64,000 bases of DNA from a phage, in assembly GCA_012401045.1 (NCBI GenBank), contig GCA_012401045.1_4704.1; one strand, written 5' to 3'. A model generated the notes under the pieces. It was given only the letters and a program-made list of their open reading frames with translations. It was not told where the DNA came from and did no database searches. Below are positions 3,134 through 47,707 of the stretch, piece after piece. A program made the translations under genes and the position numbers. Within the stretch, counting starts at the first letter, position 1. The number at the start of each line of letters is the position of its first letter.

Positions 3134-5359
3134 TTAGCAATGGTTGTTAGTTGCTTCTATTTCATCAAGATACGGTTCTACGTCATCGCCCTCCACGAAT
3201 TCGTTGAACCAACAGTCAATGGTAGAAATAACCGGCGACTGGTGTTCACATTTCTTAGATACCTTAAAAGGTACGTTATTATCCATCATACCGAGTTCGG
3301 GTCGAAAACGCCCGAAATGTTTCGCAGTCCAAATGTCTGGGACGATATGGTTGTTCATCGTAGTGTTCAGCATGAGTCGCTACCTCATACCCGCAGCTTT
3401 ACCTGCAGCTTCCGGTGTTACCGGAATGTCCAGAATATATCTTATCCATATTCCAAATGGAACGTAGGACTTCCGCGCTGGATCTCGCTTGAGACCACGT
3501 ATTCGTTGAACGTTCTCCTGAACGGAGCTTCGCTGCTGATCGAACATTGTCACGTACGGTAGGCATCCCCGAAGGGATTGTCATTGAAGCCGCGTACATC
3601 CGCTACCTTGTTTCTACCTTATCGGTTCCTCTTACGAGGCGTAGCAGCCTTAGCCCTTCCCAGCAATTCACGGAATCCAAGCTCTTCCTTTCGGAAGGCA
3701 GGGCCTATGATTAAGCGTCACCGTCGCTGTTTATCGACTATATCTTCATCCTCGTTGCGAGGAGTCTCCCGTTTTGGTCTGTGTTTAACAGAGCCTACTC
3801 TACTCGACATCGCGTCTTTCGATAGTCTGTGAGCACACATCTTAACAAACATTCGTGGATTCCTAAACAGGTGAATGTTCTTGTTGAGATGCTTCGCTGC
3901 GGATTATTCCCGTCCTACCTCTTTTACCGTACCCAGTTCATTACGCTGGCCCTCATCTATGTCACCACGATGAGTTGGTGTGTAGTCCGATTACAGAAAC
4001 TTCCCGTCAATTAGAGAGCTTTAACTACGTTCCTGTTACCAGAAACCCGACTCCGACGGCATCAATAAATCAACATAAGTTATTGATTTAATTGAAAAAA
4101 CTGAAGTCGGCATTATAACCTTTGAGGATCATCACGCTTAACCCGATGGTGTTATCCTGCGGATCGCGTTTAACCTTGGTGATTTCAAGACATTGGTTAC
4201 TGCTTCGGTCAAGTGATGGGTTTCGAACAAAGCCGCACACAATCCCATCGAACGGTGTATCAGCAATAAGCTCATCGTGCAGCTCGCTCATCATCGGATG
4301 ATAATTACGGACATGTTCCGCAACGAACGCACGCGCTGCTCTCGGTGAATAACCACGATGGAATAACTTGGATTGGATATGTTCTTTATTGGTTAAAGTA
4401 AATGGTGCGTATGGGAAATGCAGATGATAATAACGATGGTTCGCTGTTATCGAACTGATTACGGTACGCGTGGTGAATGGATGTAATGTACCTAATATGT
4501 TTTTACGTGTAATACCTTTCTTCTTACCGATGAACTCATCGAAAATCGCCGCGTGGTATTGCAGTAGCTTCAATTGCACTTTCGCCATCCAGTTTTCTTT
4601 CTTTCTGGCGCTCAAAGGTGTTGTTGGATGATAGATACTGTTCAACGTACCGATAGCATCGATCGCACCTTCCATTTTGCTATCCGCATAACGACCGGTT
4701 GGCGTATTCTCGATAACGAACATCATGGCCGCAGGAAAGCTGATATACTGACTGAAGAACTTATCACGATGGATACGGATGAATTCTCGTAGCGTGTCAA
4801 CTTTCTCCGTGTTCTTCGGTCCACGTAACGTCGGTCCTTTATACAAGATCTCCATGATGCGATCGAAGTTCTGTATAAAACTATTTACACCGCGACGTAT
4901 CCCGAATACATCGAATTGCTGCTCCAGATAGTTCTTGAGTTCGATGGGTCGTTTTACATTTGGACGGTAACTGGCATCAATGAGCCACGTCATCGTTTCA
5001 AAGCTTTTGATATTCAACTCGCTTGCCAGCACGAGATGGACCAACGGGTTAATGAACGCATCGATTCCTTCAGGAACACGCGCCCAAACCGTCGAACGAA
5101 TCTCCTGTTCTGCCGGGTAGGTCACAACCGTTTTACAGTTTGGACACACCGTGCCGAGTAGCTCACCACGATTGTAGAAACCACAACCACACTGTGGTGT
5201 GATATCCAGCGTATCGCTGGAGTAAACACGGGTGATAAAACTGTTTAATTTCTTCTTCTCTTCGACGACTTTTGTATCGTAATCATTCAACAAAATCGGC
5301 GTAAAAGGAAGTTCTGCGAGCTGTCTATCGAAACTCACGATATCGAGCATGATGGCCAT
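3134..5359 (-). CDS. RNA polymerase beta' subunit, N-terminal fragment (non-virion-type); coding sequence interrupted: exon 1 4104..5359, candidate micro-exon 3714..3726, exon 3 3134..3367 (spliced product about 500 aa)
   Basis: Exon 1 has zinc-ribbon CGCG...CPNC, RKNILG...TRTVIS and ends ...GYNADF (RpoC-like); downstream frame has HIVPDIW...GMMDNNVP; AGGAGA SD before ATG 5359. Confidence 0.7.
3368..3713 (-). ncRNA. group I intron B (candidate, ORF-less, about 346 nt)
   Basis: Minus-strand elements AAUUGCUGGGAAG (P), AUCAGCAGCGAAGC (Q), GUUCAGGAGAAC (R-like), AUAAGAUAUAUUCUGGAC (S); GAAA-capped hairpin; boundaries uncertain. Confidence 0.5.
3714..3726 (-). other. candidate 13-nt micro-exon CGACGGUGACGCU supplying (F)-D-G-D-A of the beta' catalytic loop
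   Basis: Lies between omega-G of intron A and the second intron; in frame with exon 1; P10 pairing CGACGG with guide CCGUCG. Confidence 0.45.
3727..4103 (-). ncRNA. group I intron A (ORF-less, about 377 nt)
   Basis: Minus-strand P AAUUGACGGGAAG, Q AAUCCGCAGC, R CACAGACUA, S AAGAUAUAGUC in canonical order; guide GGAGUCGG pairs exon end CCGACUU with U.G at splice site. Confidence 0.75.
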
Positions 5360-5451: not shown

Positions 5452-7347
5452 TTAGAACAGATTGAATGCCCCACCCATGTTGTTAACGCCAACATTCGGA
5501 CGATCGCTACGTGCGTAGATGTTACCGGAGATGTTACCCAGACCACGAGCACGTGCTGCCATGTTACCACGAACAGCGGTACCTGCCAGATGCTGGATGT
5601 TCTCAGGACGGATGGTGAAGCCAGCATCAGCAGCGGCTTCGATCAGCGCCTGCAGTGCTAACGGATCGAAGTCGTAACGCATTGCCCAGCCGGTTTGTTC
5701 CCAGCTACCAGACAGAACACGATCGATGATTTCGTGACGAGCGACAACACGCTGAGACATCGTCATATCGGTACGGTCGAAGCTGTCTTCCCAAGCTTCT
5801 ACGGTATCCGGGTTAGTGATGTTCATCATGTACAGATCGTCCATATCACGAATATCGTGACGGTGACCATCCTGGTGGTTGTAGTGACCCAGCGGGATAC
5901 GGTTACCGGTAGCGTAGACCAGCGGTTGGCCGTATTGATATTTCTTGCTGAAGCAACCCAGGGTAACATCATCGAACGCACGGAAGAGGGCTTTGTAACC
6001 TTCGGAGATTTCACGGACTTCACCTTCAACTTTGCCCGTATAGATCTTCTCAGCCGCCGGGATCATACGCAGCAGCCAGCTGTACTCACCTTCTTCCGGT
6101 ACGTCGATAGAAATCAGCAGAGACGGATACAGTACCTGTTGCAGGAACTTGTAAATCTGCTCGTTGGTTTGAGTAGACAGATCCAGCGGTGCGGTAACTT
6201 CCGGATCCAGTACCATCGCCAGAGCACCCGGGTTATGCGGACCAATACCACGGGCAGCGTTGCTGATTAAAGACTGTGCCCACGCCATACCGCTGTTCAG
6301 CGTAGCGATGGTGCCAATCAGACCCAACACGAAAGTGTTCGGTGTGAACGCATCCAGCTCCAGCGGGTAAGCGCTGGTCATCACGTAACGCGGCTGGTAT
6401 TGTACAGTCGGCGGTACCGGATAACCGTTAACCAGAACAGGGCCTTGGTTGAAGGTCGGGTTCTGCGGGCTGTAAGTCAGGTCAATGTAACCGGTGGTGG
6501 CGACCAGACGCTGTTGACTATCGTAATCGCTCATCGCTTGACGGATGCGGTTAGAGATAGTTACAGTGATGTCAGAACGCACAGGGTTACCAACAATATC
6601 GCTGTCCTGCATACCGCTGGTGTTGTACTGAACGCTGCTGATTGGCTGATCGCTTGCCATCATGCCCAGGTTGAACTGCGGCAGACCCAGTTTATCACCG
6701 AGACGGATTTCGATCGCGGTTTGGATTGCGTTATCTGCAGCAGACAGCAGGGTGGTTGCCAGATGCGCAGATTCAGCGGTGATTTCATTGGTCACCACAG
6801 CCAGACCAGCGATACGAACAGTACCGTTAGACTTACCGCCAATAGCTGAGTACATTGCCGCCATGACTTCGTTGATGAACGTACCGTTCAGGTTATCAAC
6901 CCAGGTACGCGGTACCAGAATGTTACCATGCGGACCTTGTTCTTCACGACGCGGCAGCGGAGCCAGACCAGCAACCAGCGGAAGCACATAACCAAAGAAG
7001 TGGTTATGGTCACCAACTTTTGCACCACTCATAACGACCAGGGTCGGATACGGTACGCTGTACTGGTTCGGGTCAACCGCAACAAAGATGAAGTCGTTTT
7101 TGAACTGGGTATCTTCCAGATATTTCTCCATCAGACGACGGAGATTCAGTACCTGCTCGGAGCCAGTATTACGGCTAATACGACGGCTCAGTGTACGGTT
7201 GATCGTACGCATCGTATGAGTTACTTTAGGCTGGCCAGCAAAATCTGCAGCGGTTTCCAGCGCCTCATCAGCACGTTGTGCGGTGCGGGTTTCAGCTGCA
7301 CGAATTTCTACATTATCGTTACCGTTATTACGTACGTCTAAGCCCAT
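5452..7347 (-). CDS. chmA: putative phage-nucleus shell protein (chimallin-like), 631 aa
   Basis: Size and position immediately upstream of beta' gene as I recall for phiKZ gp54/gp55; strong SD AAGAGGAA; TATATTACCT promoter motif 73 nt upstream; no motif-level confirmation. Confidence 0.45.
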   Translation of the reverse strand: MGLDVRNNGNDNVEIRAAETRTAQRADEALETAADFAGQPKVTHTMRTINRTLSRRISRNTGSEQVLNLRRLMEKYLEDTQFKNDFIFVAVDPNQYSVPYPTLVVMSGAKVGDHNHFFGYVLPLVAGLAPLPRREEQGPHGNILVPRTWVDNLNGTFINEVMAAMYSAIGGKSNGTVRIAGLAVVTNEITAESAHLATTLLSAADNAIQTAIEIRLGDKLGLPQFNLGMMASDQPISSVQYNTSGMQDSDIVGNPVRSDITVTISNRIRQAMSDYDSQQRLVATTGYIDLTYSPQNPTFNQGPVLVNGYPVPPTVQYQPRYVMTSAYPLELDAFTPNTFVLGLIGTIATLNSGMAWAQSLISNAARGIGPHNPGALAMVLDPEVTAPLDLSTQTNEQIYKFLQQVLYPSLLISIDVPEEGEYSWLLRMIPAAEKIYTGKVEGEVREISEGYKALFRAFDDVTLGCFSKKYQYGQPLVYATGNRIPLGHYNHQDGHRHDIRDMDDLYMMNITNPDTVEAWEDSFDRTDMTMSQRVVARHEIIDRVLSGSWEQTGWAMRYDFDPLALQALIEAAADAGFTIRPENIQHLAGTAVRGNMAARARGLGNISGNIYARSDRPNVGVNNMGGAFNLF

Positions 7348-14006: not shown

Positions 14007-14601
14007 CTGTTAGCTCCTGGGGACGTTCAACAATCGCGCCAGACGGGCAGATATTGATCGTAATGTTAATTGACGGCATCGCCATCACTCGAGGATTACT
14101 ATTACGTACGCGGACAACATGTTCGGTTGCTGATTTACGATCGACGCAATACTCTGTTTCTTGGAACTCAAATGCTTTTAACGGCGTTGGTTTTGTTTGA
14201 CGTTTAGGAACGCGGCCAAGATCAACAATATAGGCATAATCGCACACACGTTCTATTCCGTAAATACGGTTATCCGACCAGTTCTTACCAAACAGCTTGT
14301 TGTGATGATAAGACAAATATTCGGTTACCATACCCTGGACAACATCGAAATCTTCTCGAAATTCAGGTTGGTACCAAATCGGGCCGAGAATATCTGCGAA
14401 CGATTCATGACGATATCGAGGATCATGTCGAGTCCAGGTCATTCTCTGGTTAAGATCGAAATCCACCAACAACTCGGTTAATTGCAATTTTTCCTTCGGA
14501 GAAAGCTGGCGTTGATGATGCAAACTCAGACAATCGATAAGCGGTAATGAAACCCACGATGCTAATGTGTACAAATCGATCCTGGCTAATCTCTTGGTCA
14601 T
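13624..14601 (-). CDS. hypothetical protein (325 aa as tracked)
   Basis: ORF track; last about 40 residues Arg/His-rich and overlap next ORF. Confidence 0.45.
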   Translation of the reverse strand: MTKRLARIDLYTLASWVSLPLIDCLSLHHQRQLSPKEKLQLTELLVDFDLNQRMTWTRHDPRYRHESFADILGPIWYQPEFREDFDVVQGMVTEYLSYHHNKLFGKNWSDNRIYGIERVCDYAYIVDLGRVPKRQTKPTPLKAFEFQETEYCVDRKSATEHVVRVRNSNPRVMAMPSINITINICPSGAIVERPQELTDEQFEWLGQLEELRLAHAKRKAEQLANEPVYIKQGLALKERFKQRRSVFGPVQPVLYEFGVPEYRMDAESVATAFLDNGEIHRQGARSSGPFRPVRVQRPRRHRHTKSRTGNDDVSRDMDRSHYRTY

Positions 14602-14692
14602 ACTCTTTTCCTAAGTCCCCATTGTTTATACACACGATATCTGGGAATAGTTAAAATATACGGCGTAAAACGAAGCAGGAGAGTTTCTGACG

Positions 14693-15013
14693 TCATTTTC
14701 TCCCTCTTCGAATACTACCGATACCTCTTTCGTCTAAGACGTCCCAGGCACGCTTTATTTCATCCTCCGTTGCTCTGGTATCTGGAGGGACAACCATAAC
14801 ACAGTCGTGGAACGGCCAATGTGTAGGTCTGGGGTTAGCGAACAAATCATCCCATTCAAATGTCCATTCTTTCTTTGAGCGATTGTAGTAGAGTGTAAGG
14901 TACGTGTTGGTATACGCCGGATAACCGCGCATAACTTCAATATCCTTACGATCTTGCCGTTCCTGATTCCAATCGTTAAACCGCTTTCTTATTTTCTCCC
15001 ACCACTTTCCCAT
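14693..15013 (-). CDS. hypothetical protein (106 aa)
   Basis: ORF track; ATG with AGGAGA SD. Confidence 0.55.
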   Translation of the reverse strand: MGKWWEKIRKRFNDWNQERQDRKDIEVMRGYPAYTNTYLTLYYNRSKKEWTFEWDDLFANPRPTHWPFHDCVMVVPPDTRATEDEIKRAWDVLDERGIGSIRRGRK

Positions 15014-15066
15014 GCTTTCTCCTACACGGCATAAAAGCCTGCCCCGAAGGACAGGCTCGATAGAAC

Positions 15067-15267
15067 TTAACGACCATCCAATTTCAATGAAGGATGGTTG
15101 ACGATATGTGCGTGTTTTGCTGGGTCATATAGCTGATATGGAAAATAGCCATGCCATTGACGGCCTTGGCATTTCGTACACAGGAACTGACCAACACCTT
15201 GTCGATTCTCGTAAGCGAGTTCGGTACTATCAACATGACCGCAACGTTCGCAGATAAACAGCGACAT
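15067..15267 (-). CDS. small zinc-ribbon protein (66 aa)
   Basis: CERCGH...CTKCQG (two CxxC pairs); ATG with GGGGA SD; directly downstream of the tubulin-like gene. Confidence 0.5.
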   Translation of the reverse strand: MSLFICERCGHVDSTELAYENRQGVGQFLCTKCQGRQWHGYFPYQLYDPAKHAHIVNHPSLKLDGR

Positions 15268-15304
15268 AGCGCATCCCCATTCACTTGAACCTTTTGGTTC
15301 GGCA

Positions 15305-16285
15305 TTAGAAAAGCAAGAAACCGCTATTCTTCGCTTCCGCTACAGTTTCGTCACCAACTTTCGGTGCCTGTTGACGCGCGTTACGATGTTCGATGTAACG
15401 TTTCGCTTCGTCAGCGATTTGTTTGATAATACCCCCTAAACGATCGGTACTTAAAACAAACGACGTCGCTTCACGAATTGGGCTGCTTTCAGGCACAAAA
15501 CCATCGCAGCTGTAAATAGCGCTAACGCCCATGACTTTTGTCGCGTCTTTCGGATAAAGCGTACAGAAAGCAATCGGGCTATCGTTCTCTTTCGTCCAAT
15601 CGTATCCCATGAACGTATTCAGTTCGGTGATCGTTGGTTCCAAACCGGTAACACGTGGATGGTTTAAGAAGTTTTCCAGGTCGGCGCTGTCAAGACGACG
15701 GTTCTCGCCAGAAAACAGAACACAAAGCTGGCTAATAACAACCTGCACGTCCAGGTTGACATCCTGCTCCGATTTCCCATTTTCGCCATTCATGTGATAG
15801 CTAACAATCACTGGACGTTTCAACCCTTCTGCAGCCGCCATCAGTCCTTTGAAGGTGCGATCGGCGTTGATCGTTTGACGCTCATCATCGAACGAGGCAA
15901 CGATGCAACACACCACACGTTCACCACGTTCCAGCAGGTTAGCAACCAACGCAGGACCTGCAACAGAACCTGAACCACCGCTCAGACTAAAGACCACGAT
16001 ATTAAATTTACCTGGCGTATGCTTATTCAGAATACCCGGGATTTGTGAACAGATCAGTTCAGCGTTCTCATCACGCTTCTTACCAGAACCGTCTAACTCA
16101 CGACCGGCTGCATCTTTAAAGATGTAAATATGATCGTCACCCAGTGTGCTATCGCGTAGGTTAGCGCGGCTGGTATCGACATACGTCATGCTGTGTAATC
16201 CTTTCGCGACTTCGCCTTCAAATGCTGAGCCGATTTCGCCACCACAACCACCGACAGCCCAAATATGTACTTGGTTCTCTTGCAT
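15305..16285 (-). CDS. phuZ: tubulin/FtsZ-like protein, PhuZ homolog (326 aa)
   Basis: Gly-rich nucleotide-binding loops WAVGGCGGEIGSAF and SLSGGSGSVAGP (tubulin signature-like); size as I recall for phage PhuZ; TAGGAG SD. Confidence 0.7.
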   Translation of the reverse strand: MQENQVHIWAVGGCGGEIGSAFEGEVAKGLHSMTYVDTSRANLRDSTLGDDHIYIFKDAAGRELDGSGKKRDENAELICSQIPGILNKHTPGKFNIVVFSLSGGSGSVAGPALVANLLERGERVVCCIVASFDDERQTINADRTFKGLMAAAEGLKRPVIVSYHMNGENGKSEQDVNLDVQVVISQLCVLFSGENRRLDSADLENFLNHPRVTGLEPTITELNTFMGYDWTKENDSPIAFCTLYPKDATKVMGVSAIYSCDGFVPESSPIREATSFVLSTDRLGGIIKQIADEAKRYIEHRNARQQAPKVGDETVAEAKNSGFLLF

Positions 16286-16349
16286 GTGAACTCCTAACTT
16301 AATATGTATTTAACGTACAATGAATCTTTCTTTGCTAAAGGGGTGACCC

Positions 16350-17192
16350 ATGGGTGCTATTGACTACAGTGTAGATCGTATCTGTCGTACAATACCGGCA
16401 GATATCCTACAGTATTGCTATATCGATCGTTACGACTGGCGTAATCGCTATCCTCGTTCCGTAGAAGACATCATTACCGATTGGGTAATCCGTAAACGGG
16501 TTATCGGCGACATCGATATCTACGGGGGACTACAAACCGTTATTCCCCTTGATGATGCAGGTGTCACAATCGAAGAAGTCACCATTAACTGTTATGTTTT
16601 CCACATTCCGTTGGAAGCCACACAGGGACGTTATATCACGTCCGCATTATCCATTATTTCAGGGAGCGTGAACAACTACGGAATAAACTATAACGGGCAA
16701 TGGGGCGCTTTCAACCAAACCCAATTTCAACGTCAGCTTTGTGGGTGGAACCCCGCAAGCAACACGTTACAGCAAGGGATGAACGCGTTCGGTCCCATGA
16801 ACGTTCTTAGTACAGCCAACGTTGATATCATCGCCCCTAACACCATCATGGTGAACAACGTCACGCCTGTACAATTTCCCCTGAGCCTACGCTGTTTCCT
16901 TGCCCACGATCCGGAACTTACCAACCTCAGCATGGAGGTTTGGAACGACTTCTACAAACTCTGTTTATACGCCACGCAAAGTGACATCTACAACAGAACC
17001 GTTATCCGTCTCGATAGAGGTGTTACAGCACAAGGACAAGAAGTCGGTGCATTCAAGGAATACATCGATCGCTTTGCTGATGCTGAAAACACATATCAGG
17101 AATTCCTGAACGAAACGTGGGCAGGCGTTGCTGCCTGGAACGATCCGCAAACTAAACGTCGCGCCATTCGACTACAAACCGGTTACTTCTGA
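16350..17192 (+). CDS. hypothetical protein (280 aa)
   Basis: ORF track; ATG with AAGGGG SD; followed by hairpin 17205..17229. Confidence 0.6.
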   Translation: MGAIDYSVDRICRTIPADILQYCYIDRYDWRNRYPRSVEDIITDWVIRKRVIGDIDIYGGLQTVIPLDDAGVTIEEVTINCYVFHIPLEATQGRYITSALSIISGSVNNYGINYNGQWGAFNQTQFQRQLCGWNPASNTLQQGMNAFGPMNVLSTANVDIIAPNTIMVNNVTPVQFPLSLRCFLAHDPELTNLSMEVWNDFYKLCLYATQSDIYNRTVIRLDRGVTAQGQEVGAFKEYIDRFADAENTYQEFLNETWAGVAAWNDPQTKRRAIRLQTGYF

Positions 17193-17719
17193 TTAACGAC
17201 AGCTTCCTCCCTCGGTGTTTTCGAGGGAGGTATTTGCCGTTTAAACACTTTCAGCACGTTCGCAAATTCAGCGGCAATAATACAGGCCGAGGTTGATAGC
17301 TTATTACTGAAAATGAGATCGTCCGGTAAACAATCGAACTGAATACCGTATTGCGTCTTTGTCTCATCAACGATCAATGACGGTGTCGATCTTGTCTTCG
17401 CGATGTCGGTGATATACAAACGTAGAAATAATTCACCGTCTTCGCTATCCATAAAACGATAGGCGTTACCAGAAAACGCAACACATGGCGTAACGATAAA
17501 TTGAACACGATCGTCGGTCGGATGGATATTTAACCAACGTTCGATATCATTACTACTCACATTTCGCATATTTACTACGGTAAAAGCAAATAGCGTATCG
17601 TGATGTTTGGAATAATGCAGCACGTACGCCGCACCTTTCTTTTTGTGAATCCCTTCAATGTATTCTATTGTCGTATAGCCGGATTTATATAGCTTTACTT
17701 GCGGTTTATCACTCATCAT
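17183..17719 (-). CDS. hypothetical protein (about 178 aa; start moved to internal ATG overlapping upstream stop, ATGA)
   Basis: ORF track 17183..17800; tracked N-terminus overlaps upstream gene by 85 nt; Met at 17719 gives ATGA coupling. Confidence 0.45.
   Translation of the reverse strand: MMSDKPQVKLYKSGYTTIEYIEGIHKKKGAAYVLHYSKHHDTLFAFTVVNMRNVSSNDIERWLNIHPTDDRVQFIVTPCVAFSGNAYRFMDSEDGELFLRLYITDIAKTRSTPSLIVDETKTQYGIQFDCLPDDLIFSNKLSTSACIIAAEFANVLKVFKRQIPPSKTPREEAVVNQK
17205..17229 (+). terminator. terminator hairpin
   Basis: CCTCCCTCG-loop-CGAGGGAGG right after plus-strand CDS 16350..17192. Confidence 0.5.
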
Positions 17720-46018: not shown

Positions 46019-47707
46019 TTAGGCTCCACGAGGTCCCGTTAAGTTGCGTAATAGGAACGCAACCGTATCGTAACCAATATCGATGTTGAATTTATTTTTA
46101 CCACTTACCCAGAAAGCTCGCTTCTTGTGCGAGTTGGTAATTTCGTCAATAGCTTCCATGGAATAAAGAACGTTAACCGAGACCGTATCACCATCAAAGT
46201 CCCCACCAAGTCCGGCGAGGTATGGCGCAGGGACAATAGTCGTTTCTACGAACGAAGCATTAGGTAACCAGTCGGGGTATTCCCATGCGATAAATCGTTC
46301 ATCCGTTATTGGTTCCCAGTTACTATCCAGTTCGGTTTTCGGTTTTGCGGCGACGGTTGTACGTGCGTAACAGGTTAACGGGATAACGGATTGCATACCT
46401 GATACCGGATAACGTGTTACCATCGCAGCCAGGTTATTCCAGTACTTATATCCGGCAATATAGATAAGCTCGGTGTAAGTAATGGGGTGAACATCCGCGC
46501 CAGGTTTATTCAACATCTCCGGGGGTAATTCACTCATGCCACGGAATAACCGAAACGAATCGTTGTTCACATAGACGAGGCAAAGATATCGTCCATTGAC
46601 CATGATAGGCTCGTTACGCACGCCAGGATCGCTTAAGGTGTTCAGTAAACGTTCTATTCCGTCCCATGTTGTAAAGTCATCGATGGTGTCTGGATCAAGC
46701 GTGACGCGCTCACGTTCCATCGTTTCGGTATCAGTAAGTTCAACTTCTGTAACATCACGGACAAATATTTCCTGCAAAATACCGGTACGTAACGCATGTT
46801 GCGTTACTGGGAGAGCGGCTTTACTCATCTGGTATAACCCTAACTGAACCGCGGTACAGGAAGGCTGGTTAGGCGACCCTAATACCTCCGTTGTGGGGTT
46901 AATTGCCGAAATAACGTTACGGGTTGAGTTCCAAACGCGACGTGAACCAAACTTACCTTGGAAGATCCCTTTCTTACCCTGGAACATATCCAACAGTAAA
47001 GCGTAGATATCGTTGAATGTTCTCTGTAAGCTCCAGCGCTGGCCGTCGTAAACGGGATCGGAATAATCTTTTAATCCATCAGGGACGGTGTTAGAAATTG
47101 CAAGGAAACGACGATACAACTCCGTGATTTCTTGCTCGCTTTCATACCCACCTTCTTTTACTTCTATTTCACGTAAGCCTGCAGGCAATACCAGTAAGTG
47201 ACGGGTCATCGCTTTGAACATGTTCTCTTCGACAACTTTAATTCGTAGCTCTCGTTGAGCTGAACCCGTTGAAACGAACTTGATATCCGCGACGTGTTGT
47301 GCAAAGAACCCGTATCCTGTTTGTCCTGTTAATGCATCAGACGCAACGAAGTCGCGTTGTTCGGGATCCCACCGAGCGTACGCCTTCCCCGACATGATAT
47401 CGCCATAGAGGTGTTTTAATCGAATGAGACGGTCGTAAATGACAGGATGCAGGATTTCAACCTTGCATTCAATCACCGCAAATCGACGGTCTCGATCTTC
47501 ACTACCCGCACTACCAAAGATGGTGTAAGAATAGAAACCATCATCGTGGAAATTACCGGTGCTTGGGTCACGAATGCTCATGCTCGTGATCTTGGGGAGA
47601 AAACGTAACTGCTGTTTATCGAGGTGTAAAATACTAATATTAAACGGCTCTCTGACTTTAGCCATGGAGACACTCCTCTTTACCACCACCGGCTGCGGCG
47701 GTATCAT
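46019..47707 (-). CDS. RNA polymerase beta'-like subunit, N-terminal fragment (562 aa as tracked; alternative start ATG 47665 with AGAGGAG SD)
   Basis: LGGDFDGDTVSV catalytic-type motif about 55 aa from C-terminus; RFAVIECKVEILHPV near N-terminus; no zinc ribbon. Confidence 0.55.
   Translation of the reverse strand: MIPPQPVVVKRSVSMAKVREPFNISILHLDKQQLRFLPKITSMSIRDPSTGNFHDDGFYSYTIFGSAGSEDRDRRFAVIECKVEILHPVIYDRLIRLKHLYGDIMSGKAYARWDPEQRDFVASDALTGQTGYGFFAQHVADIKFVSTGSAQRELRIKVVEENMFKAMTRHLLVLPAGLREIEVKEGGYESEQEITELYRRFLAISNTVPDGLKDYSDPVYDGQRWSLQRTFNDIYALLLDMFQGKKGIFQGKFGSRRVWNSTRNVISAINPTTEVLGSPNQPSCTAVQLGLYQMSKAALPVTQHALRTGILQEIFVRDVTEVELTDTETMERERVTLDPDTIDDFTTWDGIERLLNTLSDPGVRNEPIMVNGRYLCLVYVNNDSFRLFRGMSELPPEMLNKPGADVHPITYTELIYIAGYKYWNNLAAMVTRYPVSGMQSVIPLTCYARTTVAAKPKTELDSNWEPITDERFIAWEYPDWLPNASFVETTIVPAPYLAGLGGDFDGDTVSVNVLYSMEAIDEITNSHKKRAFWVSGKNKFNIDIGYDTVAFLLRNLTGPRGA

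What the first reader, a model, noticed from the sequence alone, without database searches (positions are those of the whole stretch)
15305..16285. Tubulin/FtsZ-like PhuZ homolog
The 326-aa protein has two Gly-rich loops typical of the tubulin/FtsZ GTPase fold: WAVGGCGGEIGSAF near the N-terminus and SLSGGSGSVAGP (tubulin signature-like). Its size is as I recall for phage PhuZ spindle proteins. It is followed by a small zinc-ribbon gene.
Basis: partly seen in the sequence, partly recalled or inferred. Interest (0 to 1): 0.5.

Follow-up and report, generated by a model that had tools for sequence, protein, structure and literature searches.

The report
Goslar-type phage tubulin PhuZ gene
This gene encodes the tubulin-like protein PhuZ of a close relative of E. 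coli jumbo phage Goslar; PhuZ filaments spin the phage's nucleus-like compartment, and because this protein has already been studied experimentally and its structure solved, the finding is correct but ordinary.

Summary
The ORF is real: window 15305-16285, 326 aa, on the minus strand. It is a PhuZ phage tubulin: PHROG 'tubulin PhuZ' full length at E 2.9e-68, and one residue (D229 vs E229) different from the solved 'PhuZ Tubulin from phage Goslar' (PDB 9PM9/9PMK). PhiKZ and 201phi2-1 PhuZ are the next best sequence and fold matches. The window is 97-98% identical in DNA to Goslar 164,488-231,600 and carries Goslar-type chimallin 8 kb away. The nucleotide-binding T1 and T4 loops and the catalytic T7 aspartates (D199, D202) are invariant in 23 homologs. 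[quoted passage not shown] Verdict: interpretation supported, already known, low interest. Side observations: the 66-aa CxxC...CxxC gene after PhuZ sits in the same position in 29 of 80 PhuZ loci from viral contigs, but it also occurs unlinked to PhuZ and in a phage without PhuZ. The window also lacks an intron that splits an RNA polymerase catalytic motif in Goslar.

The parts
15305..16285 (-). PhuZ (phage tubulin) coding sequence, 326 aa plus stop; ortholog of Goslar HOV27_gp234 (gp201 in GenBank numbering)
16291..16295 (-). Shine-Dalgarno AGGAG, 5 nt before the ATG
   Evidence: read from the sequence printed
16220..16261 (-). Residues 9-22 WAVGGCGGEIGSAF: T1 phosphate-binding loop between strand S1 (6-11) and helix H1 (12-27); G12, G13, G15 at least 90% conserved
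15953..15988 (-). Residues 100-111 SLSGGSGSVAGP: T4 tubulin-signature loop between strand 94-100 and helix 106-119; G103, G104, V108 invariant
15680..15703 (-). Residues 195-202 NRRLDSAD: T7 catalytic loop and start of H8; D199 and D202 invariant and aligned with D187/D190 of PhuZ-201; D202 is the residue mutated in the published Goslar D202A dominant negative
   Evidence: PMC9891218
15599..15601 (-). Codon 229 (Asp): the only amino-acid difference from Goslar PhuZ (Glu); it lies in a variable loop of the C-terminal domain
15308..15370 (-). Residues 306-326: extended C-terminal tail (pLDDT falls to 47-68) ending in the conserved G-[FLM]-hydrophobic terminus; less acidic than in PhuZ-201
15067..15267 (-). 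66-aa CxxC...CxxC (zinc-ribbon-like) ORF, probably co-transcribed with PhuZ; ortholog of Goslar HOV27_gp235; function unknown
15031..15058 (-). Intrinsic terminator: 10-bp stem, UUCG loop, U-rich tail, 8 nt after the zinc-ribbon stop codon; annotated as a terminator in Goslar
16350..17192 (+). Divergently transcribed neighbour, DUF7484; equals Goslar gp233, the virion portal adaptor protein (context, not a PhuZ partner)
5452..7347 (-). Chimallin (phage nuclear shell protein), the structure PhuZ acts on (context)

Best explanation
The gene encodes PhuZ, the tubulin/FtsZ-superfamily GTPase of a Goslar-like nucleus-forming jumbo phage (Chimalliviridae) of E. coli. Monomers bind GTP through the T1 and T4 loops. 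They polymerise head to tail, so that the T7 loop of one subunit (D199, D202) inserts into the nucleotide pocket of the next and triggers hydrolysis, which gives dynamic filaments. The extended C-terminal tail contacts neighbouring subunits. In infected cells the filaments surround the chimallin-bounded phage nucleus as a vortex-like array, push against the cell membrane and rotate the nucleus. This is thought to spread docking capsids over its surface for DNA packaging. PhuZ is an accessory factor that improves efficiency, not an essential one. Shown here: identity, fold, motif conservation and genomic context. Taken from published experiments on the protein that differs by one residue: filaments, vortex, rotation and the D202A effect. 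Inferred: that this allele (D229 instead of E229) behaves identically.
For: Full-length PHROG 'tubulin PhuZ' match, E 2.9e-68. 325 of 326 residues identical to PDB 9pm9/9pmk, titled 'PhuZ Tubulin from phage Goslar'. PhiKZ039 E 7.8e-29 and PhuZ-201 E 6e-15 by sequence. AF2 model pLDDT 87.4 with Foldseek TM 0.91 to 9pm9, 0.82 to phiKZ and 0.80 to PhuZ-201, then CetZ, TubZ and FtsZ. Window DNA 97-98% identical and collinear with Goslar. Goslar annotation 'tubulin PhuZ' at the orthologous position. Chimallin at 5452-7347 matches Goslar chimallin 7sqt with E = 0. G103, G104, D199, D202 and others are invariant in 23 homologs down to 28% identity, and D199/D202 align with PhuZ-201 D187/D190. Only 1 of 19 nucleotide differences from Goslar changes an amino acid, consistent with purifying selection. 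Experiments on Goslar PhuZ: GFP-PhuZ vortex, rotation direction correlated with filament orientation, and D202A cutting rotating nuclei to 29% (PMC9891218; review PMC12908238).
Against: Pfam Tubulin scores 29.9 bits, under its 33-bit gathering threshold. Pfam's phage-tubulin C-terminal domain PF22334 does not hit this protein at all, although it hits more distant homologs. NCBIfam has no match. The salt-bridge residues reported as essential for PhuZ-201 assembly (R217:D305, E225:R290) align to Y228/T314 and S236/E299, and the tail carries 3 rather than 6 acidic residues. Filament architecture may therefore differ from the three-stranded PhuZ-201 filament. No experiment was done on this exact allele.
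Confidence: 0.96

Rival explanations
1. It is a TubZ-type partition motor (type III TubZRC system) that segregates phage or plasmid DNA by treadmilling, with a DNA-binding adaptor and a centromere.
For: The fold also matches TubZ of C. botulinum phage c-st (E 6e-14) and of B. thuringiensis. The phiKZ homolog was deposited as 'TubZ' (3zbp/3zbq). A small Cys-rich protein is encoded next to it.
Against: PhuZ structures match far better (E 1e-23 to 1e-60, against 1e-11 to 1e-14 for TubZ). No iteron or centromere-like repeat array lies within 14600-17300, only short two-copy matches. The neighbour is a 66-aa zinc-ribbon-like protein, not a winged-helix TubR, and it lies downstream rather than upstream. 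Goslar PhuZ filaments were imaged around the phage nucleus.
Confidence: 0.02
2. It is PhuZ but works as a bipolar spindle that centres the nucleus at midcell, as in phiKZ, phiPA3 and 201phi2-1, rather than as a rotating vortex.
For: Same family, with conserved catalytic residues. Some Goslar-infected cells show two long flanking filaments.
Against: The protein differs from Goslar PhuZ at one conservative position. For Goslar, vortex organisation was seen at all expression levels and D202A did not change nucleus position.
Confidence: 0.03
3. It is a degenerate tubulin-fold protein that no longer hydrolyses GTP or polymerises.
For: Sub-threshold Pfam score, no PF22334 hit, and reduced tail acidity.
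Against: All nucleotide-binding and catalytic positions are intact and invariant. 18 of 19 substitutions relative to Goslar are synonymous. The Goslar ortholog polymerises in vivo.
Confidence: 0.01

Closest known systems
PhuZ of Escherichia phage vB_EcoM_Goslar (HOV27_gp234; gp201 in MK327938 numbering; PDB 9PM9/9PMK)
   Same: 325 of 326 residues, 98.1% nucleotide identity, same neighbours, same terminator, same genome organisation.
   Different: D229 in place of E229. The surrounding genome differs by 2-3% and by two intron or homing-endonuclease indels.
PhuZ of Pseudomonas phages phiKZ (gp039, PDB 3ZBP/3ZBQ), 201phi2-1 (gp59, PDB 3R4V/3J5V) and phiPA3 (gp028)
   Same: Same fold (TM 0.78-0.85). 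Same T1, T4 and T7 motifs with the catalytic DxxD. Long H11 helix followed by an extended C-terminal tail with a hydrophobic end. Encoded by chimallin phages.
   Different: Only 23-27% identity. The residues of the two assembly salt bridges are not conserved, and the tail is less acidic (net charge 0 vs -4 in PhuZ-201). Published cell biology differs: vortex and rotation without centring, versus a bipolar spindle that centres the nucleus. Those phages have no zinc-ribbon gene downstream.
PhuZ of Erwinia phage RAY (gp210)
   Same: 27% identity, same motifs, same divergent arrangement with the DUF7484 adaptor gene. It likewise lacks the PhuZ-201 salt-bridge residues.
   Different: RAY filaments are reported as five-stranded tubes, with rare rotation. 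No zinc-ribbon ORF follows RAY PhuZ.
TubZ, CetZ, FtsZ and tubulin (wider superfamily)
   Same: GTPase domain plus activation domain fold, G-box signature, T7 activation in trans.
   Different: 12-16% identity and lower fold scores (E 1e-11 to 1e-14). No TubR/tubC partners.

Membership tests
PhuZ phage tubulin (PHROG 4733) | Full-length match to the family profile | tested here: met
   E 2.9e-68, residues 1-323 on profile positions 1-321 of 323
PhuZ phage tubulin | Tubulin/FtsZ two-domain fold, closest to solved PhuZ structures | tested here: met
   AF2 pLDDT 87.4, pTM 0.86. Foldseek: 9pm9 E 1e-60, 3zbq E 8e-27, 3r4v E 2e-23, ahead of CetZ, TubZ and FtsZ
PhuZ phage tubulin | T1 loop and T4 tubulin-signature nucleotide-binding motifs | tested here: met
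   GGCGG at residues 12-16 and GGSGS at 103-107. G103 and G104 invariant, G12/G13/G15/S105/G106/S107 at least 90% conserved in 23 sequences. Invariant across Goslar-like, RAY, phiPA3 and phiKZ-like proteins
PhuZ phage tubulin | T7 catalytic acidic pair (DxxD; D187/D190 in PhuZ-201) | tested here: met
   D199 and D202 invariant and aligned to D187/D190
PhuZ phage tubulin | Extended C-terminal tail with acidic 'knuckle', and the inter-subunit salt bridges described for PhuZ-201 | tested here: inconclusive
   The tail and the terminal G-F-L-L-F are present. There are only 3 acidic residues in the last 25 (6 in PhuZ-201), and R217, E225, R290 and D305 align to Y228, S236, E299 and T314. The alignment in this variable region is uncertain
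PhuZ phage tubulin | Encoded by a chimallin-encoding (nucleus-forming) jumbo phage | tested here: met
   Chimallin at 5452-7347 (7sqt, E = 0). Window collinear with Goslar, with multisubunit RNAP genes, terminase and tail sheath
PhuZ phage tubulin | GTP-dependent polymerisation into dynamic filaments that move the phage nucleus | not testable with these tools
   Shown in vivo for the Goslar protein, which differs by one residue (PMC9891218)
Pfam PF00091 Tubulin/FtsZ GTPase domain | Score at or above Pfam's gathering threshold (33 bits) | tested here: not met
   29.9 bits, E 8.3e-7, residues 9-151. Homologs P0003 and P0006 pass. The shortfall reflects divergence, not absence of the domain (fold test met)
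Pfam PF22334 TubZ_C_2 (phage tubulin-like C-terminal domain) | Match to the domain profile | tested here: not met
   No hit up to E = 10. P0006 matches at 2e-12, P0004 at 2.4e-4 and P0003 at 0.014. Structurally the domain is present
TubZRC type III partition system | Adjacent TubR adaptor gene and tubC iteron centromere | tested here: not met
   No repeat arrays in 14600-17300. The neighbours are a portal adaptor and a 66-aa Cys4 protein

The most novel reading that the evidence does not exclude
The 66-aa CxxC...CxxC protein co-transcribed with PhuZ (window 15067-15267, minus strand) is a so-far undescribed accessory factor of the PhuZ cytoskeleton in the phage lineages that carry it, for example a nucleator, an anchor to the nuclear shell or membrane, or a regulator of filament organisation. 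It might then contribute to vortex rather than spindle geometry. In support, it lies directly after PhuZ in 29 of 80 viral PhuZ loci, with no mixed clusters after de-replication, and it is generally at least as conserved as PhuZ. Against it, Xanthomonas phage Xoo-sp14 has the protein but no detectable PhuZ, Erwinia phage pEa_SNUABM_54 has the two genes 69 kb apart, and two metagenomic loci have it without PhuZ within 3 kb. Shared inheritance of gene order therefore explains the linkage at least as well.
Probability: 0.1. Interest if true: 0.5.

Novelty: already known. Interest (0 to 1): 0.1.

Why it matters
The finding adds nothing new about PhuZ. The Goslar protein has been imaged in vivo, mutated (D202A) and solved (PDB 9PM9/9PMK), and this exact allele is already present in many public assemblies. 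Its value is as a correct annotation and as a marker that the window belongs to a nucleus-forming Goslar-like phage. The only possibly useful lead is the conserved small zinc-ribbon gene downstream of PhuZ. Reviews state that the factors deciding spindle versus vortex organisation are unknown (PMC12908238), and this gene is testable in the tractable Goslar/E. coli system.

Tried and rejected
- NCBIfam gave no family for PhuZ, and only sub-threshold zinc-finger noise for the small protein.
- An Rfam gathering-threshold scan found nothing in the window or in the Goslar region.
- The complete E. coli RefSeq genomes hold no copy of the locus, so it is not a resident element there.
- The primary paper for 9PM9/9PMK is not in the held library; only an unrelated benchmarking preprint cites 9PM9. 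The filament architecture of Goslar PhuZ could therefore not be read.
- The sigma-70 promoter scan was at background (3 found, 3.1 expected). Its terminator pattern missed the real hairpin, which RNA folding then showed.
- A word-indexed homology search with the 66-aa protein reached only one near-identical cluster. The AF2 model therefore had a two-sequence alignment (pLDDT 68) and its fold search was not significant.
- PHROG has no solid family for the small protein.
- Two literature searches for PhuZ together with zinc terms found nothing relevant.
- I considered the divergent neighbour DUF7484 as a PhuZ partner and rejected it: it is the virion portal adaptor.
- I considered the TubZRC reading and rejected it, because there are no iterons.

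Full report
**1. Observation**

Window 15305-16285 holds a 326-aa ATG-to-stop ORF. It lies on the minus strand; the plus-strand reading is full of stops. The ATG is at 16285-16283 and is preceded by AGGAG five bases upstream. The stop codon is at 15307-15305.

A 66-aa ORF with two CxxC pairs (C6/C9, C30/C33) follows 37 nt downstream on the same strand, at 15267-15067. Eight nucleotides after its stop codon there is a 10-bp GC-rich hairpin with a UUCG loop and a U-rich tail. The 66-nt stretch folds at -23.9 kcal/mol, z = -2.7, and none of 200 shuffles folds as well. This hairpin corresponds to a terminator annotated in Goslar. PhuZ and the small ORF therefore look like one bicistronic unit.

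**2. Identity**

Profile searches:
- PHROG assigns the protein over its full length to phrog_4733 'tubulin PhuZ' (E 2.9e-68).
- Pfam sees the Tubulin/FtsZ GTPase domain at residues 9-151 (E 8.3e-7). Its 29.9 bits fall just under the 33-bit gathering score.
- Pfam's phage-tubulin C-terminal domain PF22334 does not hit this protein, although it hits more distant homologs.
- NCBIfam has no model that matches.

Solved structures:
- The protein is identical at 325 of 326 positions to chains of 9pm9/9pmk (E 4e-220). It matches phiKZ039 (3zbp, E 7.8e-29) and PhuZ of 201phi2-1 (3r4v/3rb8/3j5v, E 6e-15).
- An AlphaFold2 model built on 23 homologs is confident (pLDDT 87.4, pTM 0.86).
- Foldseek ranks '9pm9, PhuZ Tubulin from phage Goslar' first (E 1e-60, TM 0.91). 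PhiKZ and 201phi2-1 PhuZ follow (E 1e-23 to 1e-27, TM about 0.8), and only then CetZ, TubZ and FtsZ (E 1e-11 to 1e-14).

**3. Source and context**

The window is 97-98% identical in DNA to, and collinear with, Escherichia phage vB_EcoM_Goslar positions 164,488-231,600. The orthologous Goslar gene, HOV27_gp234, is annotated 'tubulin PhuZ'. The window gene differs from it at 19 of 981 nucleotides, and only one difference changes an amino acid: D229 here, E229 in Goslar.

Exactly this protein sequence is on record in 850 blocks of the public assembly collection. These include 236-241 kb contigs from metagenomes and two NCBI assemblies. None of the complete E. coli RefSeq genomes carries the locus.

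Goslar-type chimallin, the nuclear shell protein, lies at 5452-7347 (PDB 7sqt, E = 0). The divergently transcribed neighbour at 16350-17192 (DUF7484) is the ortholog of Goslar gp233. A 2026 cryo-EM preprint identifies gp233 as the portal adaptor of the virion neck. The same preprint detected PhuZ (gp234) in virion preparations as carried-over filaments.

**4. Anatomy and mechanism**

In the model the quoted motifs sit where the tubulin/FtsZ fold places them:
- **T1 loop:** residues 11-16, between strand 6-11 and helix 12-27.
- **T4 signature loop:** residues 101-106, between strand 94-100 and helix 106-119.
- **T7 loop:** between helix 173-190 and helix 200-207.

In 23 homologs reaching down to 28% identity, these positions are invariant: D37, T38, S39, N42, G66, G68, R71, G103, G104, V108, N140, Y163, N166, D199, D202 and G262. 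One search is the same alignment with numbering offset by one, because my reference there dropped the start Met.

D199 and D202 align with D187 and D190 of PhuZ-201. D202 is the residue mutated in the published Goslar experiments.

Those experiments show the following (Birkholz et al. 2022, PMC9891218; review PMC12908238):
- GFP-PhuZ forms a vortex-like array around the phage nucleus.
- Rotation direction follows filament orientation.
- D202A polymerises at much lower induction levels and acts as a dominant negative.
- With D202A, only 29% of nuclei rotate, and they rotate more slowly. Nucleus position is unaffected.

PhuZ is an accessory gene. It is absent from about a third of chimalliviruses and is non-essential in phiKZ.

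The mechanism I give is therefore GTP-dependent head-to-tail polymerisation with T7-in-trans hydrolysis, producing dynamic filaments that push on the membrane and rotate the nucleus. For this sequence it is inferred from near-identity with the tested protein.

**5. Differences from the Pseudomonas PhuZ proteins**

Identity is 23-27%. The residues of the two salt bridges reported as essential for PhuZ-201 assembly (R217:D305 and E225:R290; quoted) align here with Y228/T314 and S236/E299. The last 25 residues hold 3 acidic residues with net charge 0, against 6 and net charge -4 in PhuZ-201. The terminal Gly-hydrophobic motif is kept.

RAY PhuZ also lacks these residues, and it is reported to form five-stranded tubes. 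A different filament lattice in the Goslar clade is therefore plausible. I could not read the paper behind 9PM9/9PMK because it is not in the held library.

**6. Rival readings**

A TubZRC-type partition system is not supported. There is no iteron array within 14600-17300 and no TubR-like neighbour, and the PhuZ structures match far better than TubZ. A degenerate, non-polymerising protein is contradicted by intact catalytic residues and by 18 of 19 substitutions being synonymous.

**7. The small zinc-ribbon gene (side lead)**

Evidence for linkage to PhuZ:
- Homologs of the 66-aa protein follow PhuZ directly in metagenomic relatives whose PhuZ is 56%, 60% and 32% identical. The small protein is 57%, 45% and 43% identical in the same loci.
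- Profile HMMs of both proteins were run on 80 PhuZ-seeded IMG/VR loci. A homolog lies immediately downstream of PhuZ on the same strand in 29 of them.
- After de-replicating PhuZ at 70% identity there are 18 clusters all with it, 34 all without it, and none mixed. At 50% the counts are 9, 30 and 0. The positives fall in two or three blocks of a PhuZ UPGMA tree.
- It is absent after PhuZ in RAY, phiPA3 and a phiKZ-like phage. 201phi2-1 has a 94-aa gene (gp60) after PhuZ that I did not test with the profile.
- Among cultured phages it sits next to PhuZ in Goslar, LucasX and RTH11.

Evidence against a strict partnership:
- Erwinia phage pEa_SNUABM_54 has the two genes 69 kb apart.
- Xanthomonas phage Xoo-sp14 has the small protein beside the adaptor gene but no PhuZ detectable by tblastn. 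Only two Xanthomonas records have PhuZ, namely LucasX and RTH11.
- Two viral contigs have the small protein without PhuZ within 3 kb.

The linkage is therefore real and phylogenetically coherent, but not obligatory. Inherited gene order explains it at least as well as a functional partnership.

The protein's fold is only loosely supported as a zinc ribbon. No literature on it was found.

**8. Other things seen**

The window lacks two Goslar segments.

*First segment.* Goslar 211,747-213,799, an annotated group I intron plus the gp206 ORF, is absent. The window ORF 46019-47707 (-) reads straight through '...LGGDFDGDTVSV...'. In Goslar, gp205 ends '...LGGD' followed by 13 read-through residues, and 'FDGDTVSV...' is encoded upstream of gp207. 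The Goslar intron therefore sits inside the catalytic DFDGD motif of a phage RNA polymerase subunit, and the window carries the intron-less allele.

*Second segment.* Goslar 168,216-169,282, the HNH endonuclease gp186, is absent. The window nevertheless keeps a full-length group I intron match at 3727-4094 (-), with 49.3 bits against a gathering score of 50 (E 3e-11), and a weaker match at 3413-3723. These lie between a 423-aa RNAP piece and a 79-aa ORF. The 79-aa ORF weakly matches the C-terminus of the uninterrupted 201phi2-1 gp107 (E 0.017).

**9. Verdict**

The protein is the PhuZ tubulin of a Goslar-like phage and is already known in sequence, structure and cell biology. Interest is low. 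The only open thread is the conserved PhuZ-adjacent zinc-ribbon gene.

Noticed in passing
window 15067-15267 (-); related loci L009, L014, L016, L026-L098, L106-L108: A 62-66-aa CxxC...CxxC protein (motif F-x-C-x2-C-x2-[VI]-D ... C-T-x-C-Q-G-x2-W-H-G) lies directly downstream of PhuZ in 29 of 80 viral PhuZ loci. After de-replication at 70% PhuZ identity there are 18 positive and 34 negative clusters and none mixed. It is generally at least as conserved as PhuZ. It also occurs without adjacent PhuZ (Xoo-sp14, pEa_SNUABM_54, L022, L025). Its function is unknown and no literature was found.
   Followed up: partly
window 46019-47707 (-), junction near 46192-46200: The window lacks Goslar's roughly 2 kb group I intron plus ORF gp206. 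The RNA polymerase subunit gene reads uninterrupted through the catalytic DFDGD motif, which the intron splits in Goslar. This is an intron-less allele of a homing site.
   Followed up: partly
window 3374-4094 (-), junction at 3728-3731: A full-length group I intron match (RF00028, 49.3 bits vs gathering 50, E 3e-11) at 3727-4094 and a weak second match at 3413-3723 lie between a 423-aa RNAP beta-prime-like ORF (4088-5359) and a 79-aa ORF (3134-3373) that weakly matches the C-terminus of the unsplit 201phi2-1 gp107. The HNH endonuclease ORF present at this spot in Goslar is missing here.
   Followed up: partly
window 16350-17192 (+): The DUF7484 protein transcribed divergently from PhuZ is the ortholog of the Goslar portal adaptor gp233. 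The divergent PhuZ/adaptor arrangement is shared with Erwinia phage RAY (30% identity), and a homolog lies about 4 kb from PhuZ in 201phi2-1 (gp73, 28% identity).
   Followed up: yes
window 15305-16285 (-); loci L004-L008: This exact PhuZ allele (D229) is on record in 850 blocks of the public assembly collection, including near-complete 236-241 kb genomes in metagenomes and two NCBI assemblies. Goslar-like phages appear widespread. No copy exists in the complete E. coli RefSeq genomes.
   Followed up: partly
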